Shown in pieces: positions 3,582-62,464 of a DNA stretch of 64,000 nucleotides. Source of the stretch: a phage; the sequence record PX246730.1; one strand, written 5' to 3'. Below the pieces are notes generated by a model. That model searched no databases, was not told the DNA's origin, and saw nothing but the letters and a program-made list of their open reading frames with translations. Made by a program: the position numbers and the translations under genes. Numbering within the stretch: the first letter of the stretch is position 1; each line of letters opens with the position of its first letter.

Positions 3582-4130
3582 ATGAAGAAATTGATTCTAG
3601 GTTTGTGCTTAATGTTTACAGCACACTTATCTTATGCAGTTGACTGCCCAGAGCTATCAATTAGCCAAAAAGTAAACATGTTAAAAGCTTACCAGTATGG
3701 TGAGAATAACATGGGTAAAGGTTGGGGTATCACTCTAGCTGCTATAGCCTTACAAGAGTCAGAGCTAGGTCTGAAGGTAGAGAATAAAAAGACACACGAT
3801 TATGGTATTTTCCAGAATCACTTGAAGACTGTTGTAAAGCGTAACAAAATCAGCCCTAATGTGGCTAAAAAGAAACTCTTAAGAGACTTTGATTATGCTG
3901 CGAAGGAAACTCACAAAGAGCTTGAGTTTTGGACAAAGGTGCATGGTCAGCCAAAGTCAAAGAAGACTTTACAAAAAGTTTTAGCATCATATAATGCTGG
4001 GTATTCGTACAGAATCCCTAAAGCTAAGAAATATTCTCAAGATGTCTATAACAACATGAAAGTCATTGCTCAATGTGAATTTGCAATAAACATTTCTAAG
4101 GTAAACCATGAAAAAATTAAAAAAGTCTGA
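3582..4130 (+). CDS. secreted lytic transglycosylase-like protein (SLT domain)
   Basis: N-terminal signal peptide MKKLILGLCLMFTAHLSYA; SLT motifs LQESELGL, GIFQNH, SYNAGYSY; RBS AGGAGA. Confidence 0.5.
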   Translation: MKKLILGLCLMFTAHLSYAVDCPELSISQKVNMLKAYQYGENNMGKGWGITLAAIALQESELGLKVENKKTHDYGIFQNHLKTVVKRNKISPNVAKKKLLRDFDYAAKETHKELEFWTKVHGQPKSKKTLQKVLASYNAGYSYRIPKAKKYSQDVYNNMKVIAQCEFAINISKVNHEKIKKV

Positions 4131-23444: not shown

Positions 23445-24860
23445 ATGAGCGAGTTATTCAAACATGCGCACCTTCATGCAGGTCGAACTGAAAATGGTGC
23501 TGTAAACCATACTTCATCAATGTCTGCTCTGGTAGACTTCTACAAAGCCGCTGGCTCAAGCCGTAGCAATGTAGAAATCTTACCAGACCTGTTCTACAAA
23601 GCTTTGCGTGAGGATGTTGATGTTGCAGTTCGTATTTTACTGCATATGCGAGATGTACGAGAAGGTATGGGTGAGCGTAAAGCCTTCAGAACTGTTTTGC
23701 TTCAAGCGATTGAAGACAAAGTTTTAGAGCCTACACAGGTTCTTCGCATTATGGATAAGATTGCAGAGCTTGGTCGTTTTGATGACTTCAAAATCTTCGT
23801 AGGTACTCGTTTTGAGACAGATGCCTTTAAGCATTTAGAAGCAGCATTACTAGACCCTGAGACAGCAGGTTTAGCAGCCAAGTGGTTACCACGAGTAAAA
23901 CCACGACACAAACAGTTTGTAAAACGTTTCTGTAAGTTTGCAAACTTAAGCGAGAAAGAGTATCGCACACTGTTATCTGCACTGTCTGATACGGTTGAGC
24001 AAAAAATCTCTGCTAATGAGTTTGGTAAGATTGATTACAGTAAGATTCCTTCTCTTGCTGCTGCACGTTACCAAAAACTCTTTAACCGTAAAGATGGAGA
24101 ACGCTACAAAGCTTACATTGAGTCGCTATCAAAAGGTGAAGCTAAGATTAATGCTGGTGCTGTCTACCCATACGATGTGATTAAATCTATCAAGCATGGT
24201 AATGCAGATGTTGCTAATGAGCAGTGGAAAGCACTACCAAACTGGATGGCAGAAGGTGAGAACATCTTGTGTATGACTGATGTCTCAAGCTCAATGTCTT
24301 GGGTGAATCTTGGTTCAATCACGGCTCTTGATATTGGTGTATCTCTTGCCCTGTATGTAGCAGAACGCAATACTGGTTGCTTTAAGAATGAGTTAATGGT
24401 TTATTCAACAAACCCTCATTTCATTGAACTGAGTGGTGATTTACGAAACCGTCATCGTCAGGTGATGCGACACGTTGAATATGGTTCAACTAACTTACAA
24501 GCAGCTTTTGACCGTATTCTTGAGACAGGTAAAAGAAACAACTTGACTCAGAAAGATATGCCAAGTAAGCTTATCATCTTCTCAGATATGGAATTCAATC
24601 AGGTTGATGGAGCTAATGGTCGTACAAACTTTGAAGCAATTCAGAGTAAGTACAAAAAAGCTGGATATGAGATGCCACAACTGGTATTCTGGTACTTAGC
24701 AAACCGTAATGGTACTTGCGAAGTGTCTGTTAAGGATAACGGTGTAGCAATGGTATCTGGTTTCTCTCCAGCCACTTTAAAAGCTCTGCTTGGTGGTGAG
24801 AAGTTTGACCCAACCAGCGTAATGCTCAAAGCAGTAATGATTGACCGTTACATCTGGTAA
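23445..24860 (+). CDS. vWA-domain protein resembling Ro60/Rsr (TROVE + vWA)
   Basis: MIDAS motif DVSSSM followed by LGSI; C-terminal IIFSDMEF and GFSPATLKAL segments resemble Ro60 vWA (from memory); N-domain not verifiable. Confidence 0.55.
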   Translation: MSELFKHAHLHAGRTENGAVNHTSSMSALVDFYKAAGSSRSNVEILPDLFYKALREDVDVAVRILLHMRDVREGMGERKAFRTVLLQAIEDKVLEPTQVLRIMDKIAELGRFDDFKIFVGTRFETDAFKHLEAALLDPETAGLAAKWLPRVKPRHKQFVKRFCKFANLSEKEYRTLLSALSDTVEQKISANEFGKIDYSKIPSLAAARYQKLFNRKDGERYKAYIESLSKGEAKINAGAVYPYDVIKSIKHGNADVANEQWKALPNWMAEGENILCMTDVSSSMSWVNLGSITALDIGVSLALYVAERNTGCFKNELMVYSTNPHFIELSGDLRNRHRQVMRHVEYGSTNLQAAFDRILETGKRNNLTQKDMPSKLIIFSDMEFNQVDGANGRTNFEAIQSKYKKAGYEMPQLVFWYLANRNGTCEVSVKDNGVAMVSGFSPATLKALLGGEKFDPTSVMLKAVMIDRYIW

Positions 24861-24878
24861 AAAGTTTTAAAAAGGGTA

Positions 24879-24907
24879 TTGACAATGTGTTTGATACCCT
24901 TTAATAT
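24879..24907 (+). promoter_or_regulatory. sigma70-like promoter TTGACA-N17-TAATAT flanked by 8-bp inverted repeat
   Basis: AAGGGTAT...ATACCCTT brackets the promoter. Confidence 0.55.
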
Positions 24908-24969
24908 GTCCTACATAGAAACGAAATGAGAGCTTTTCTAAGATACTGAAAAATATTTTAAAAAAGTTC

Positions 24970-24998
24970 TTGACAACCACTAAAAAATAATGTTAAAG
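24970..24998 (+). promoter_or_regulatory. candidate promoter (TTGACA-N17-TTAAAG) with dyad ACCACT/AGTGGT, upstream of tRNA array
   Basis: read directly; -10 weak. Confidence 0.35.
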
Positions 24999-25025
24999 TG
25001 GTTACATAGAGTTTGAAAAGTTTAT

Positions 25026-25102
25026 CTCTGTTTAGCTCAGCTTGGTAGAGCGTTCCGTTTGGGGCGGTAAGGCCGGAGGTTCAAGTCCTCCAACAGAGAC
25101 CA
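25026..25102 (+). tRNA. tRNA-Pro(TGG)
   Basis: 7-bp acceptor CTCTGTT/AACAGAG, D-loop AGCTTGGTA, anticodon loop TTTGGGG, T-loop TTCAAGT, CCA encoded. Confidence 0.75.
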
Positions 25103-25109
25103 AATTAAT

Positions 25110-25187
25110 GTTCCAGTAGACAAAATGGTATAGTCACCACTCTTTCAAAGTGGATATTTGAGGGTTCAAATCCCTTCTGGAACGCCA
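25110..25187 (+). tRNA. tRNA-Glu(TTC)
   Basis: acceptor GTTCCAG/CTGGAAC, anticodon loop CTTTCAA, T-loop TTCAAAT, CCA encoded. Confidence 0.7.
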
Positions 25188-25192
25188 GTTTT

Positions 25193-25267
25193 GACAGAAG
25201 ACCAATTGCAGCAAACTTAATCTTATTCATCTGAAGGTAAATCGGACAAAGAAGAGATTTGGTCTGG
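25193..25267 (+). ncRNA. framed element a (ACAGAAGACC ... GGTCTGG closing stem)
   Basis: member of 4-copy family with covarying closing stem; function unknown. Confidence 0.3.
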
Positions 25268-25279
25268 TCATTAAGAATT

Positions 25280-25355
25280 GCGGGTATAGAGAAAGGGCGT
25301 CTCACATGTCTCATTAGCATGGTATCGGCAGGTTCGACTCCTGCACCCGCCTCCA
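25280..25355 (+). tRNA. tRNA-Met/Ile2(CAT)
   Basis: anticodon arm CATGT-CTCATTA-GCATG, T-loop TTCGACT; acceptor register ambiguous. Confidence 0.55.
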
Positions 25356-25360
25356 AATTT

Positions 25361-25436
25361 ACAGAAGACCGTTTACAGCAATACTTATTAAATTTTTAGC
25401 GGAAAAAATTGAAAGATACGGTCTGGTAATACTAAA
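25361..25436 (+). ncRNA. framed element b
   Basis: AGACCG/CGGTCT closing stem (compensatory change versus element a). Confidence 0.3.
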
Positions 25437-25439
25437 CAT

Positions 25440-25513
25440 GGTTAGGAAGCACATAAGGTATGTGCGGTCGCCTGTTAAGCGAATGGCACAGGGTTCGAAT
25501 CCCTGACTAACCG
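25440..25513 (+). tRNA. tRNA-Asn(GTT)
   Basis: D-stem GCAC/GTGC, anticodon loop CTGTTAA, T-arm CAGGG-TTCGAAT-CCCTG. Confidence 0.7.
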
Positions 25514-25525
25514 CAAAATTTAAAT

Positions 25526-25613
25526 GTGTCGTTATCCCGTAGATGGTAGCGGTGGGGACTGTAAATCCCTTGTCATTGAGACTCGGTAGGTTCGACTCCT
25601 ACACGGCACACCA
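25526..25613 (+). tRNA. tRNA-Tyr(GTA), long variable arm
   Basis: acceptor GTGTCGT/ACGGCAC, anticodon loop CTGTAAA, 15-nt variable arm, CCA encoded. Confidence 0.7.
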
Positions 25614-25674
25614 ATTTTGAGAGGGCTATTTAGCCCCTCCCTTAAAGAGTTCTTACGAGTATTCTTTAAAGGAG

Positions 25675-25748
25675 CAGAAGACCAAATACAGCAAGTTACT
25701 TAAAATTTCAAGCCAATTTAATTTTGAAAAATTTAAAACTTGGTCTGG
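25675..25748 (+). ncRNA. framed element c
   Basis: AGACCA/TGGTCT closing stem. Confidence 0.3.
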
Positions 25749-25760
25749 CTCAACAAATTT

Positions 25761-25893
25761 ACAGAAGACCGTTTACAGCAAAACTTAAACAATCTATTTC
25801 TCTGGTAAAGAAAAGGCGAAGGTTCGATTCCTTCACTCGGCAGATGTCGAGTTGGTGTAATGGTAGCACTTAAGATGATAAACAACGGTCTGG
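25761..25893 (+). ncRNA. framed element d enclosing permuted tRNA halves
   Basis: GACCGTT/AACGGTC closing stem surrounds 25797-25870. Confidence 0.35.
25797..25870 (+). tRNA. candidate circularly permuted tRNA-Thr(GGT): 3' half precedes 5' half
   Basis: 3' half = anticodon arm TTTCT-CTGGTAA-AGAAA + T-arm GAAGG-TTCGATT-CCTTC + ACTCGGC; 3 nt later 5' half GTCGAGT + D-arm GTGT-AATGGTA-GCAC; acceptor strands complementary at 7/7 with one GU. Confidence 0.4.
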
Positions 25894-25896
25894 TAA

Positions 25897-26036
25897 TTAT
25901 CTTTGTAGATAAGTTATTAAGCTTACCTGTGAGTATGCGACCACAAAGGGTGAAAGGGTAAATTCTAGATTTAAACCCAACAAGGCACATCGCTACAGAC
26001 CTTAAGCAAGTCTGGGTAGCTTATCTACAAAGATAA
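25897..26036 (+). ncRNA. ~140-nt element closed by 15-bp stem (TTATCTTTGTAGATAAG / CTTATCTACAAAGATAA)
   Basis: long-range perfect inverted repeat. Confidence 0.3.
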
Positions 26037-26042
26037 TTTAAT

Positions 26043-26118
26043 GGAAGTGTAGCAGAATGGTGATGCGGCAGACTTTTAATCTGACAGGCGATGGGTTCGA
26101 ATCCCTCCACTTCTACCA
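26043..26118 (+). tRNA. tRNA-Lys(TTT)
   Basis: acceptor GGAAGTG/CACTTCT, anticodon loop CTTTTAA, T-loop TTCGAAT, CCA encoded. Confidence 0.7.
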
Positions 26119-26122
26119 ATAT

Positions 26123-26199
26123 GGTTCAGTCGCAGATAAGGTAATGCAGGGGTCTCATAAGCCCTATGAATGTGGGTTCGATTCCCATCTGAACCTCCA
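26123..26199 (+). tRNA. tRNA-Met/Ile2(CAT)
   Basis: acceptor GGTTCAG/CTGAACC, anticodon loop CTCATAA, CCA encoded. Confidence 0.7.
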
Positions 26200-26201
26200 A
26201 T

Positions 26202-26277
26202 GCTGTGAAAGCACATATGGATGTGCATTCGGCTGATAACCGAAAGGAAGAAGGTTCGAATCCTTCTCACAGTACCA
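26202..26277 (+). tRNA. tRNA-Ile(GAT)
   Basis: D-stem GCAC/GTGC, anticodon arm TTCGG-CTGATAA-CCGAA, CCA encoded. Confidence 0.75.
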
Positions 26278-26290
26278 ATTTCAATAAAGT

Positions 26291-26319
26291 TGTTGACACT
26301 GAGATGTGACTACTTTATA
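26291..26319 (+). promoter_or_regulatory. strong sigma70-like promoter TTGACA-N17-TATAGT inside tRNA array
   Basis: read directly. Confidence 0.6.
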
Positions 26320-26526
26320 GTAACCTTAGTTTTCGTTGCGTAGCGTCTATTTTGCAAATTTAAAATAAATGCAAACGACAATGTTTTTCTGGCAGTAGCT
26401 TGATAGGCTAAACACCAGTGAGGTCTTCCAATCCCTCATCAAAGAATTTGGCGTACTAGCCCACGGTATGATTAATAAGGTGGGCATCTTTAAGGGCTTT
26501 CTAAGAGAGTCTTTAAAGATTAATTA

Positions 26527-26608
26527 CGGGGCGTATCTCATCTGTCTTCTAAACAGACGTTAACCGAGTAAGTGGAGTATGCGGGTTCGAGTCCTGCCGC
26601 CTCGACCA
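26527..26608 (+). tRNA. non-canonical tRNA-like element with Arg(TCT)-type anticodon hairpin and no recognisable D-arm
   Basis: acceptor CGGGGCG/CGCCTCG, hairpin TCTGT-CTTCTAA-ACAGA, 23-nt extra segment, T-arm GCGGG-TTCGAGT-CCTGC, CCA encoded. Confidence 0.4.
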
Positions 26609-26751
26609 ATTTAGTTAGCAGATTACTTAGACGACCTAAGCGGGTCTTCCTGTAGGGAGGTGGTCTGTATCTCATGTTTTCCAGAACATGTAAATAATCT
26701 GAGAAGGGGCTTTACAGTGTTGAGATAATACGGTAAGCTTCGAATTATAGT

Positions 26752-26834
26752 ATGGGACGATGTTAAGACTCTAAGGCATGAGCAACGGCTTCCAACACCG
26801 TTTCAAAGGGGTTCGACTCCTCCGTCCCATGCCA
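26752..26834 (+). tRNA. tRNA-Trp(CCA), atypical (extra nt between acceptor and D-arm)
   Basis: acceptor ATGGGAC/GTCCCAT exact, anticodon loop TTCCAAC, CCA encoded. Confidence 0.55.
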
Positions 26835-26847
26835 AAGTCTTATTAGG

Positions 26848-26935
26848 GGTAGGTAGCGGCTAATGGTAGCCAAACTGTCTTGAAAACAGTTGCCACTGTA
26901 GAGATACGGTGAGGGTTCGACTTCTTTACTTACCG
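26848..26935 (+). tRNA. tRNA-Ser(TGA), long variable arm
   Basis: anticodon arm ACTGT-CTTGAAA-ACAGT, 20-nt variable arm, T-loop TTCGACT. Confidence 0.7.
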
Positions 26936-27091
26936 CCTAATAAGATTTTAAAGCCAAGCTTCATTCGGATGTTGCTTTGGTATCCCTCGTGTTGTCGAAC
27001 ACACTAATAAAGCACCTAGTAGGTGTCACGGAGAAGAGATAATATCAAGCTCTCCAAAGGTTCTAGTCACCGGATTAAACAAGACTATGCA

Positions 27092-27112
27092 AAGACCTTT
27101 TTAGGTCTTTTT
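27092..27112 (+). terminator. hairpin AAGACC/GGTCTT plus T-tract inside tRNA array
   Basis: read directly. Confidence 0.45.
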
Positions 27113-27191
27113 AGAGGGCTTCTAAGGTTATTACAGCTTGTTGTGGAACCTTGTTGCTTAGGTTCTTAGAAGTTCTCTAAAAAGATTTAAT

Positions 27192-27269
27192 GGGAGATTG
27201 ACGGTAATTGGTAAACCTATCTCGCTTAGAACGAGATGTTTGAGGGTTCGAATCCCTTGTCTCCTACCA
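27192..27269 (+). tRNA. tRNA with anticodon TAG (Leu-type), short variable loop
   Basis: acceptor GGGAGAT/GTCTCCT (GU ends), anticodon arm TCTCG-CTTAGAA-CGAGA, CCA encoded. Confidence 0.6.
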
Positions 27270-62193: not shown

Positions 62194-62464
62194 CTGGTCA
62201 ATACACTCGCAAGGTGTACCAGTTCTCTTATGAACTTCTCCGCATTTCTACGGAGTGTCGGACTATATCACGTAGTAGTAATACTACCGTTGCACTTGGG
62301 AATGGTCATTAGCTTACCACCCTACTCTACTCAGTTCATACATTAAGTATGCTTTTCGATAGTCTCTGAACGTTCCTCTTAAGAGGCTTCGCTGCTGATT
62401 ACCATATCTTTACAGACTTAGGCTTCCAGCAATTCACAACGTTTTACATGCGCCACTGACGCAT
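62194..62464 (-). mobile_element. group I intron (ORF-less) in DNA polymerase gene
   Basis: on the RNA strand, in order: P AAUUGCUGGAAGCC, Q AAUCAGCAGC, R GUUCAGAGACUAUCG, S GAUAUAGUCCGACA; interrupts reading frame within motif B; splice sites approximate. Confidence 0.8.

What the first reader, a model, noticed from the sequence alone, without database searches (positions are those of the whole stretch)
23445..26608. Ro60/Rsr-like TROVE-vWA protein next to a tRNA array that contains tRNA-like non-canonical RNAs
The 471-aa protein has a clear vWA MIDAS motif (DVSSSM...LGSI) and C-terminal segments resembling the Ro60 vWA domain. Bacterial Ro60 orthologs (Rsr) bind Y RNAs that mimic tRNAs and are usually encoded next to rsr. 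About 1.7 kb downstream, a strong promoter (TTGACA-N17-TATAGT at 26291) precedes a ~200-nt structured leader and a tRNA-like element (26527-26608) with a perfect acceptor/T-arm scaffold and CCA but no D-arm and a 23-nt extra segment. This makes a phage Ro60-Y RNA-like module plausible. The N-terminal TROVE assignment is from memory, not alignment.
Basis: partly seen in the sequence, partly recalled or inferred. Interest (0 to 1): 0.65.

Follow-up and report, generated by a model that had tools for sequence, protein, structure and literature searches.

The report
Phage Ro60-like protein with its small RNAs
A Felix O1-type phage encodes a ring-shaped Ro60-like protein followed by four small RNAs hidden between its tRNA genes, and these RNAs carry the same signature as the "Class I" RNAs thought to exist only in Dictyostelium amoebae.

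Summary

It is a D-arm-less tRNA-Arg(UCU) derivative; sister genera have a normal tRNA-Arg there.

The likely partner RNAs are four unannotated elements in the tRNA spacers: A 25192-25270, B 25359-25429, C 25672-25751 and D 25759-25896. All share a clamp: [A/U]G-stem, then UNCAGCAA, a variable insert, then stem'-C[U/A]G. D encloses a T-arm, a closed acceptor stem and a D-arm, as in YrlA.

This clamp sits beside homologous genes, on the gene strand, in about 60% of 157 unrelated phage and bacterial loci. A covariance model built only from dictyostelid Class I RNAs finds the same elements (31 of 31 hits on the gene strand in an untrained set).

No binding or expression data exist for these RNAs. 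The verdict is a new variant of the Ro60-Y RNA system.

The parts
23445..24860 (+). Gene for a 471-aa Ro60-fold protein (Pfam DUF2828 + DUF7788; TROVE-like helical ring plus vWA domain with an intact MIDAS site). Ortholog of Bas63 gp130.
24879..24999 (+). Two sigma-70-like promoter matches (24879-24907 and 24970-24999, 10 of 12 each) ahead of the tRNA / small-RNA array. These are consensus matches only.
   Evidence: The total number of matches in the region is no higher than in shuffled sequence.
25192..25270 (+). Element A, a short clamp RNA: UGAC / AGA / AGACCAA - UUGCAGCAA ... UUGGUCU / G / GUCA. It fills the spacer between tRNA-Glu and tRNA-Met.
   Evidence: R1 scores 43.9 bits at 25198-25267. 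Conserved in Moogle with a G.U-compatible change.
25359..25429 (+). Element B, a short clamp RNA: UUAC / AGA / AGACCGU - UUACAGCAA ... ACGGUCU / G / GUAA. It fills the spacer between tRNA-Met and tRNA-Asn.
   Evidence: R1 53.5 bits. Rfam RF01414 (Dictyostelium Class I RNA) 20.7 bits. Dictyostelid-only model R2 19.6 bits, E=0.07.
25672..25751 (+). Element C, a short clamp RNA: GAGC / AGA / AGACCAA - AUACAGCAA ... UUGGUCU / G / GCUC.
   Evidence: R1 50.6 bits. The lower stem covaries with those of A, B and D.
25759..25896 (+). Element D, a long clamp RNA with a permuted tRNA-like insert (YrlA-like).
   Evidence: The same architecture occurs in at least 8 other lineages.
25818..25869 (+). tRNA-like core of element D: T-arm 25818-25834 (GAAGG-UUCGAUU-CCUUC), closed acceptor-like stem 25835-25852 (ACUCGGC-agau-GUCGAGU) and D-arm 25855-25869 (GUGU-AAUGGUA-GCAC).
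   Evidence: The acceptor-like stem is fully different yet still paired in Moogle (ACCCUUC/GAAGGGU) and SUSP2 (ACACG/CGUGU). Covariation over 11 elements is shown.
26293..26321 (+). It drives the conserved leader and the next tRNA block, not elements A-D.
26527..26608 (+). It was assessed and is not assigned to the RNP.
   Evidence: A canonical tRNA-Arg(TCT) sits at the same place in relatives.

Best explanation
Shown:
- ORF 23445-24860 encodes a Ro60-fold protein of the DUF2828/DUF7788 family.
- Four RNA elements share one terminal clamp. It has an invariant G-C pair preceded by a covarying A-U or U-A pair, then a 5-7 bp stem of free sequence. A single-stranded (U)NCAGCAA follows directly after the 5' strand, and a G follows the 3' strand.
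- This clamp co-occurs with the gene family across very distant phages, on the gene strand and next to the gene.

Inferred:
- The protein binds this clamp as Ro60 binds the Y RNA stem.
- The four RNAs are transcribed with the tRNA array from the promoters at about 24.9 kb. RNase P and tRNA 3'-end processing of the flanking tRNAs then release them, because elements A, B and D each fill the gap to a neighbouring tRNA or element to within a few bases (C begins about 58 nt after tRNA-Tyr).
- The resulting particles contain either a short 'Class I-like' RNA (A, B, C) or a YrlA-like RNA (D). D's permuted tRNA mimic would give the ring access to enzymes or nucleases that recognise tRNA.

Likely role: RNA quality control and counter-defence during infection. 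The 99%-identical Bas63 gp130 neutralises the ppl defence system.
For: Fold:
- AlphaFold model with pLDDT 86 and pTM 0.87.
- Foldseek's top 10 hits are all Ro60/Rsr/TROVE.

Motif in the window:
- AGAAGACCNNNTNCAGCAA occurs 4 times in 64 kb, all at 25196-25781, against 0.14 expected.
- The four copies fold alike. Both the lower stem (GAC/GUC, UAC/GUA, AGC/GCU) and the upper stem (AA/UU versus GU/AC) covary.

Association with the gene:
- In 77 diverse viral loci, CAGCAA on the gene strand is 3-6 times enriched within 500 nt of the gene. It is not enriched on the other strand.
- A strict descriptor gives 101 hits on the gene strand against 14 on the other.
- Covariance model R1 gives 79 of 80 hits on the gene strand.
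- In an untrained set of 80 genome loci, R1 gives 84 of 85 hits on the gene strand, in 50 of 80 loci.
- R1 also finds untrained elements beside 29-36%-identical homologues in Listeria, Staphylococcus and Campylobacter phages.
- Mini-hairpins with the same signature sit 10-20 nt before the start codon of the gene in several loci. This suggests autoregulation by the protein.

tRNA-like insert:
- T-arm 100% paired, acceptor-like stem 86% paired and D-arm 82% paired over 11 elements. All 7 acceptor pairs show changes on both sides. Slid controls give 41-53%.
- Rfam YrlA gives sub-threshold hits in relatives at 39.2, 38.9 and 28.7 bits.

Function: Bas63 gp130 is 464/471 identical and counters ppl (PMC11482910).
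Against: - There are no binding, expression or processing data for elements A-D.
- gp130 alone, from a plasmid or inserted in T7, rescues T7 on a ppl host. That phenotype therefore does not need the phage RNAs.
- The canonical Ro60-binding motifs (GGUCCGA, GNCGAA) are absent. No Rfam Y_RNA or YrlA hit occurs in the window even at E<=10.
- About 40% of homologous loci show no element within the fetched flanks.
- The stem statistics of alignment A2 are partly circular, because its elements were picked for having a stem. The strand and position statistics are not circular.
Confidence: 0.7

Rival explanations
1. One reading: the Y RNA partner is the D-arm-less tRNA-like element 26527-26608, made from the strong promoter at 26293 through a structured leader.
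For: - The element exists. It passes the Rfam tRNA threshold but is non-canonical.
- The promoter and leader are conserved.
- Y RNAs of the YrlA type mimic tRNA (PMC4201824).
Against: - It has no CAGCAA clamp, and R1 gives no hit there.
- It keeps a perfect anticodon arm with UCU. REP9 shows a compensatory U-A to G-C change in that stem.
- Moogle, SUSP2, Sf16, KMM2 and Bas63 carry a canonical tRNA-Arg(TCT) at the same position. It is therefore a lineage-specific tRNA-Arg variant.
- It is not found beside homologues in other phages.
Confidence: 0.07
2. The clamp elements are cis-acting signals rather than free RNAs. They could be processing or stability hairpins of the tRNA precursor, or operators and UTR elements that control the DUF2828 gene.
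For: - In the window they sit exactly in tRNA spacers.
- In several loci a mini-version overlaps the 5' UTR of the gene.
- There are no expression data for free RNAs in this phage.
Against: - Most loci that have elements have no tRNA gene within 4 kb. Only 21 of 60 loci have any tRNA.
- The elements occur as tandem arrays of 2-5 copies, either upstream or downstream of the gene.
- Many carry a complete tRNA-like domain.
- The matching dictyostelid RNAs are abundant, stable, free cytoplasmic RNAs (PMC7919456).
Confidence: 0.13
3. The RNAs are real, but they work with another partner, such as a host or phage RRM-type protein or PNPase. The Ro60-like protein would then be only a genomic neighbour that acts on its own against ppl.
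For: - gp130 works without the phage RNAs in T7.
- In Dictyostelium, the one protein shown to bind a Class I RNA directly is the RRM protein CIBP/Rnp1A.
Against: - The linkage is tight, strand-specific and conserved over protein identities down to 29%, in phages of Proteobacteria, Firmicutes, Actinobacteria and Campylobacterota.
- The protein has the fold of an RNA-binding ring whose relatives are encoded next to their RNAs (PMC4201824).
Confidence: 0.1

Closest known systems
Bacterial and phage Ro60 (Rsr) with Y RNAs YrlA/YrlB (Chen et al. 2014, PMC4201824; Thermus phage phiLo Ro60 with Yrl1/Yrl2, PMC12135203)
   Same: - The protein fold is the same: a TROVE ring plus a vWA domain with a MIDAS site.
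- The small RNA genes lie next to the protein gene.
- There is one long RNA with T-arm, closed acceptor stem and D-arm in the YrlA order, plus shorter RNAs without it, as with YrlB.
- The setting is a phage, and the role is linked to RNA metabolism or counter-defence.
   Different: - There is no Pfam TROVE match. The family is filed as DUF2828/DUF7788.
- The RNA module that should bind the protein is different. It is an AG-stem / UNCAGCAA / CUG clamp, not the GNCGAA(N)G or GGUCCGA bulged helix.
- Rfam YrlA is not reached: there is no hit in the window, and relatives score 28-39 bits against a threshold of 69.
- The RNAs are interleaved with a tRNA array.
Dictyostelid Class I RNAs (Rfam RF01414; Kjellin et al. 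2021, PMC7919456)
   Same: All conserved features are shared:
- a terminal stem of about 6 bp that starts with an invariant G and covaries freely;
- the motif (C)CUUACAGCAA directly 3' of the 5' strand;
- a 3' end reading CUG(U);
- a variable A/U-rich middle and a total length of about 45-70 nt.

Some Class I RNAs also carry T-arm inserts (DpuR-22, asu_can_20, ppa_can_99).

A covariance model built only from 29 dictyostelid RNAs finds the phage elements. The best hits reach 33 bits (E about 1e-5), and 53 of 58 and 31 of 31 hits are on the gene strand.
   Different: - They are eukaryotic genes with their own DUSE promoter.
- They are dispersed in the genome and are not known to be linked to a DUF2828 gene.
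- The only proven direct binder is an RRM protein.
- The phage elements score 13-24 bits against Rfam RF01414, below its threshold of 41.5.
- The Felixounavirus copies have an extra 4-bp lower stem with an AGA/G internal loop.
Bas63 gp130 (PhageMaP preprint, PMC11482910)
   Same: It is the same gene. The protein is 99% identical and the synteny is identical, directly upstream of tRNA-Pro. It has already been called Ro60-like by structure and shown to counter the ppl defence.
   Different: That work guessed that some annotated tRNA genes might be Y RNAs. The elements found here are not annotated as tRNAs in Bas63. They lie in the spacers or under spurious minus-strand ORFs bas63_0137 and bas63_0138.

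Membership tests
Ro60 / Rsr (TROVE + vWA RNA-binding ring) | Helical TROVE ring followed by a vWA domain (overall fold) | tested here: met
Ro60 / Rsr (TROVE + vWA RNA-binding ring) | Sequence-profile match to the TROVE domain (Pfam PF05731) | tested here: not met
   At E<=1 only DUF7788 and DUF2828 match. phmmer against PDB sequences finds nothing. The family profile finds Ro60 only at E=1.5, over the MIDAS segment.
Ro60 / Rsr (TROVE + vWA RNA-binding ring) | MIDAS motif DxSxS...T...D in the vWA domain | tested here: met
   D279, S281, S283, T349 and D381 are invariant in 37 homologues.
Ro60 / Rsr (TROVE + vWA RNA-binding ring) | Partner RNA with the conserved Ro-binding helix (GGUCCGA in animals, GNCGAA(N)G in bacteria) | tested here: not met
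   This motif is absent from elements A-D. The Rfam YrlA consensus 5' end reads cgGCGAAUGC, whereas the elements here read AGACCNN-UNCAGCAA.
Ro60 / Rsr (TROVE + vWA RNA-binding ring) | Physical binding of the protein to the adjacent RNAs | not testable with these tools
   This needs RIP/CLIP or gel shifts.
YrlA (Rfam RF02553) | T-arm, closed acceptor-like stem and D-arm, in that order, inside a terminal stem | tested here: met
   Element D spans 25818-25869. Covariation over 11 elements is shown.
YrlA (Rfam RF02553) | Score at or above the Rfam gathering threshold (69 bits) | tested here: not met
   There is no YrlA hit on 25740-25920 at E<=10. Relatives reach 28.7-39.2 bits.
Dictyostelid Class I RNA (Rfam RF01414) | Terminal stem of about 6 bp that begins with an invariant G, and a 3' end reading CUG(U) | tested here: met
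   Elements A-D read (A)G-ACCNN...NNGGU-C-U-G-G. G3, C62 and G64 are invariant in 31 phage elements.
Dictyostelid Class I RNA (Rfam RF01414) | 11-nt motif next to the 5' strand, with U3, C6, C9, A10 and A11 conserved (CCUUACAGCAA) | tested here: met
   B and D read GUUUACAGCAA and A reads AAUUGCAGCAA. C reads AAAUACAGCAA, where position 3 differs.
Dictyostelid Class I RNA (Rfam RF01414) | Score at or above the Rfam gathering threshold (41.5 bits) | tested here: not met
   Element B scores 20.7 bits and element D 13 bits. Relatives reach 24.4 bits. My own dictyostelid-only model gives 19.6 bits for B and up to 33.5 bits elsewhere.
Dictyostelid Class I RNA (Rfam RF01414) | Dictyostelid gene context (DUSE promoter about 60 nt upstream) and abundant cytoplasmic expression | not testable with these tools
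   The phage copies lie in a bacterial-type tRNA operon. No expression data are available.
Pfam DUF2828 / DUF7788 | Matches above the curated thresholds | tested here: met
   DUF7788 scores 149 bits (cut-off 27.1) and DUF2828 scores 104.1 bits (cut-off 29). PHROG 850 matches at 4e-184.
   Rfam tRNA scores 33.4 bits, above the threshold of 29. The acceptor stem, anticodon arm (UCU), T-arm and CCA end are present. The D-arm is absent, and ARAGORN does not call the element.

The most novel reading that the evidence does not exclude
DUF2828/DUF7788 proteins would be a second, widespread branch of the Ro60 family with their own class of Y-like RNA. Dictyostelium Class I RNAs, published as unique to dictyostelids and tied to their multicellular development, would be the eukaryotic members of that RNA class. 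These RNAs would then be bound in the amoeba by a DUF2828-type Ro60 paralog. One candidate is the uncharacterised pull-down protein DDB_G0281243. Plants and other eukaryotes with DUF2828 genes might carry undiscovered RNAs of this kind. The link at the RNA level is shown statistically here. The protein link in Dictyostelium could not be tested.
Probability: 0.4. Interest if true: 0.9.

Novelty: new variant of a known kind. Interest (0 to 1): 0.8.

Why it matters
- It names concrete, testable RNA ligands for a phage counter-defence protein that already has a phenotype: Bas63 gp130 against ppl.
- It gives a first functional handle on DUF2828/DUF7788. This family has thousands of members in phages, bacteria and plants, and the papers I could search contain no functional work on it.
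- It defines a second protein-binding module for Y-like RNAs.
- It connects a 20-year-old orphan RNA class of Dictyostelium to the Ro60 world. If the connection holds, it would overturn the view that Class I RNAs are a dictyostelid invention. It would also suggest what they bind and do.

Tried and rejected
1. Alternative pairing of the repeats, with the 3' half of one element pairing to the 5' half of the next so that the stems would bracket the tRNAs. I rejected this because the two variable base pairs next to the GACC/GGUC core match only within an element: AA/UU in A and C, GU/AC in B and D.
2. Rfam Y_RNA and YrlA searches on the window gave no hit, even at E<=10 on the 181-nt stretch.
4. 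I tested whether the Listeria phage CKA15 'most transcribed region' (26,236-26,727) equals the clamp elements. It does not. It maps about 700 nt further upstream, to a different non-coding stretch of about 490 nt. That paper therefore gives no expression evidence for the clamp RNAs.
5. I tried to find out whether Dictyostelium DDB_G0281243 is a DUF2828 protein and could not.
   - The afdb50 library is not installed.
   - Avesson 2011 and Aspegren 2004 are not held.
   - The identifier and family motifs are absent from the truncated proteome files in the supplement.
   - The library holds no functional literature on DUF2828, DUF7788 or UCP015417.
6. The covariation count on alignment A2 shows 100% pairing. 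I discount it because those elements were selected for having a stem.

Full report
**Source and protein.** The window is a Felix O1-like myovirus. The region 23445-27200 matches 277 phage records, nearly all Felixounavirus and related Ounavirinae. The best matches are 96.7% identical. ORF 23445-24860 (+) is 471 aa long. It matches Pfam DUF7788 (1.6e-43) and DUF2828 (1e-29) and has no TROVE hit at E<=1. It also matches PHROG 850, 'RNA-binding protein' (4e-184). The family is very large. I counted 2904 homologues among the scored candidates and 710 phage records. These include mycobacteriophage proteins annotated 'Ro-like RNA binding protein' (31-34% identical) and homologues in Listeria, Staphylococcus, Enterococcus, Campylobacter and Vibrio phages.

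**Prior art.** The ORF is 464/471 identical to Bas63 gp130 and sits in identical synteny. The PhageMaP preprint reports three things about gp130. It resembles Ro60 structurally. Its deletion cripples Bas63 on hosts carrying the ppl defence. And gp130 alone, from a plasmid or inserted into T7, restores T7 growth on ppl hosts. The authors guessed that some annotated tRNAs might be Y RNAs (PMC11482910). A Listeria phage study made the same guess for a distant homologue (PMC12282133).

The promoter-like site TTGACA-17-TATAGT is at 26293-26321, with 11 of 12 matches. The leader at 26322-26490 is almost invariant across Felixounavirus, Mooglevirus and Suspvirus. The element 26527-26608 passes the Rfam tRNA threshold (33.4 bits) but is not called by ARAGORN. 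It has a 7-bp acceptor stem, a T-arm, a CCA end, no D-arm and a 22-nt extra segment. It also has a perfect anticodon arm with UCU. REP9 carries a compensatory U-A to G-C change in that stem. Moogle, SUSP2, Sf16, KMM2 and Bas63 have a canonical tRNA-Arg(TCT) at the same position. I read it as a lineage-specific, restructured tRNA-Arg and not as a Y RNA.

**Four repeated elements in the tRNA spacers.**
- Reading 24840-27200 showed four copies of AGAAGACCNNNUNCAGCAA. Each is followed 50-120 nt later by GGUCUGG. The pattern occurs only at these four places in 64 kb, against 0.14 expected.
- All four fold the same way. There is a 4-bp lower stem, an AGA/G internal loop and an upper stem AGACCNN/NNGGUCU, followed by single-stranded UNCAGCAA.
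- The lower stems differ in sequence yet all pair (UGAC/GUCA, UUAC/GUAA, GAGC/GCUC). The two variable pairs of the upper stem covary within each element.
- Elements A, B and D each fill the gap to a neighbouring tRNA or element to within a few bases; C begins about 58 nt after tRNA-Tyr.
- Elements A, B and C are short: 25192-25270, 25359-25429 and 25672-25751.
- Element D (25759-25896) encloses a T-arm (GAAGG-UUCGAUU-CCUUC), a closed 7-bp acceptor-like stem and a D-arm-like hairpin (GUGU-AAUGGUA-GCAC). This is the permuted order that defines YrlA (PMC4201824).
- All four elements are conserved in Moogle, SUSP2, Sf16, KMM2 and Bas63. The acceptor-like stem of D is completely different yet still paired: ACUCGGC/GUCGAGU here, ACCCUUC/GAAGGGU in Moogle and ACACG/CGUGU in SUSP2.

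**The clamp travels with the gene family.**
- Mycobacteriophage Bazzle has three elements right after its Ro-like gene. One of them has a tRNA-like insert. All read UGG-stem-UAACAGCAA...stem-CCAGU.
- In 77 diverse viral contigs whose homologues are 39-48% identical, CAGCAA on the gene strand occurs 69 times in the first 500 nt after the gene and 37 times in the 500 nt before it. The background is about 12 per bin, and the opposite strand shows 3 and 8.
- A strict descriptor, [A/U]G-stem, then 0-5 nt, then CAGCAA ... stem'-C[U/A]G, gives 101 hits on the gene strand against 14. Seventy of the 101 lie within 500 nt of the gene.
- In an alignment of 31 short elements, the G, the CAGCAA, the C and the final G are invariant. 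The A-U pair in front flips to U-A in five of them.
- The covariance model R1 built from that alignment finds 80 hits at E<=1 in 734 kb, 79 of them on the gene strand. In the window it hits only A, B and C.
- R1 also finds untrained tandem elements next to homologues of only 29-36% identity in Listeria, Staphylococcus and Campylobacter phages.
- In a wholly independent set of 80 loci from bacterial and archaeal genome assemblies, R1 gives 85 hits at E<=0.5. Of these, 84 are on the gene strand, in 50 of the 80 loci, mostly within 500 nt upstream of the gene.
- Several loci carry a 33-38-nt mini-version 10-20 nt before the start codon of the gene. This looks like an operator for autoregulation.

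**Long elements.** At least twelve long elements from eight or more lineages carry the T-arm, closed acceptor stem and D-arm inside the same clamp. Over 11 of them the acceptor-like stem is 86% paired, with double-sided changes at all 7 pairs, and the D-arm is 82% paired. Slid controls give 41-53%. Several acceptor loops read N-CCA, as expected of a permuted tRNA. Rfam YrlA gives sub-threshold hits in relatives (39.2, 38.9 and 28.7 bits against a threshold of 69). Its 5' module (cgGCGAAUGC) differs from the clamp.

**The Dictyostelium link.**
- The only Rfam family that repeatedly touched the short elements is RF01414, Dictyostelium Class I RNA. It scored element B at 20.7 bits, Bazzle at 18.9 bits, and L076 and L079 at about 24 bits. 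Each hit coincides exactly with an element boundary.
- Published Class I RNAs are described as 42-65 nt long. They have a covarying 6-bp terminal stem that starts with an invariant G, an 11-nt motif CCUUACAGCAA next to the 5' strand, and a conserved CUGU end. They are reported as absent outside Dictyostelia (PMC7919456).
- The sequences, for example GUUGAC-CUUACAGCAA...GUCAAC-UG, fit the phage descriptor.
- Some members carry T-arm inserts: DpuR-22, asu_can_20 (with an adjacent closed hairpin) and ppa_can_99.
- I built a model, R2, from 29 dictyostelid RNAs of six species only. On the viral set it gives 58 hits at E<=10, of which 53 are on the gene strand and 16 have E<0.02. The best reach 33.5 bits (E about 1e-5), and they coincide with the R1 elements.
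- On the independent set, all 31 R2 hits are on the gene strand, with a best E of 9e-6.
- No paper in the library links Class I RNAs with Y RNAs.
- The published pull-down with Class I RNA DdR-21 recovered GuaB, NdkC, the RRM protein CIBP and an uncharacterised protein, DDB_G0281243. I could not determine what DDB_G0281243 is.

**Context.** In 21 of 60 diverse loci, tRNA genes lie within 4 kb, always on the gene strand. The Listeria locus also carries an RtcB-type ligase gene 1.2 kb downstream. This recalls the rsr-yrlBA-rtcBA operon of Salmonella; that comparison rests on established knowledge and was not tested here.

**Interpretation and limits.** The protein fold, the RNA structures and their tight, strand-specific, phylogenetically broad linkage are shown. 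Binding, release of the RNAs from the tRNA precursor and the biological role are inferred. One point cuts against an obligate RNA requirement: gp130 works against ppl without the phage RNAs. About 40% of loci show no element in the flanks I fetched. The Felixounavirus module is best filed as a new variant of the Ro60-Y RNA system, with a different RNA-recognition module. The broader claim about Dictyostelium rests on RNA similarity alone and needs the protein look-up and a binding experiment.

Noticed in passing
window 25897-26042 (+): A structured RNA of about 140 nt lies directly after element D and is closed by a stem of about 23 bp. Mooglevirus and Suspvirus have a different sequence but keep the stem through several compensatory pairs. 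A long double-stranded stem of this kind would suit RNase III. Its identity is unknown.
   Followed up: partly
window 26322-26490 (+): The 'leader' after the strong promoter is almost invariant across three genera, far more conserved than its surroundings. One hairpin shows 3 compensatory pairs. It has only weak, non-significant resemblance to tmRNA models (15.6 and 24.7 bits). It is probably a separate conserved non-coding RNA.
   Followed up: partly
window 26750-26835 (+): A second non-canonical tRNA-like element. It has a 10-bp acceptor-type stem (AUGGGACG.../...CGUCCCAU), a T-arm and a GCCA end, and a hairpin with a 9-nt loop containing CUUCCAA. Its fold z-score is -2.5. ARAGORN does not call it.
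   Followed up: partly
window 62238-62521 (-): A group I intron matches Rfam RF00028 at 64.2 bits, above the gathering score of 50.
   Followed up: no
L012 3953-3988, L017 1763-1797, L020 2858-2892, L029 3950-3986, L031 3903-3938, L067 3906-3945: Mini-hairpins of 33-38 nt with the full clamp signature sit 10-20 nt upstream of the start codon of the DUF2828 gene, just before the ribosome-binding site. This looks like an operator through which the protein could repress its own translation.
   Followed up: partly
L088 (Listeria phage VAfA18) 1946-2437 and 6200-7519: The region homologous to the most highly transcribed stretch of Listeria phage CKA15 is a non-coding segment of about 490 nt with its own consensus promoter. 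It lies between the tRNAs and the clamp RNAs and is distinct from them. An RtcB-type RNA ligase gene lies 1.2 kb downstream of the Ro60-like gene.
   Followed up: partly
L046 3734-3834: Here the clamp encloses a nearly complete, non-permuted tRNA-Thr(UGU)-like sequence, which ARAGORN calls at 3753-3824. The tRNA-like insert therefore comes in more than one topology.
   Followed up: no
PMC7919456 supplement 48: DpuR-22, asu_can_20, ppa_can_99; DdR-66/67, DpuR-27 to DpuR-30: Some dictyostelid Class I RNAs contain a tRNA T-arm (GGGGUUCGAAUCCCC; CUAGGUUCGAUCCCUAG followed by a closed hairpin). Another subgroup shares a long insert (GGUGUAGAAUAGGUGGGAG...GUGAAAUACCACCAC).
   Followed up: no
window 25619-25671 (+): Two back-to-back hairpins (GAGAGGGCU...AGCCCCUC and CUUAAAGAG...CUUUAAAGG) lie between tRNA-Tyr and element C. 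REP9 annotates this stretch as tRNA-Thr(CGT), which looks spurious. The window lacks the tRNA-Asp that Moogle, Sf16 and Bas63 carry here.
   Followed up: no
L172 (Bas63) 3749-4023: The minus-strand ORFs bas63_0137 and bas63_0138 overlap element C, element D and the structured RNA. They are probably not genes.
   Followed up: no
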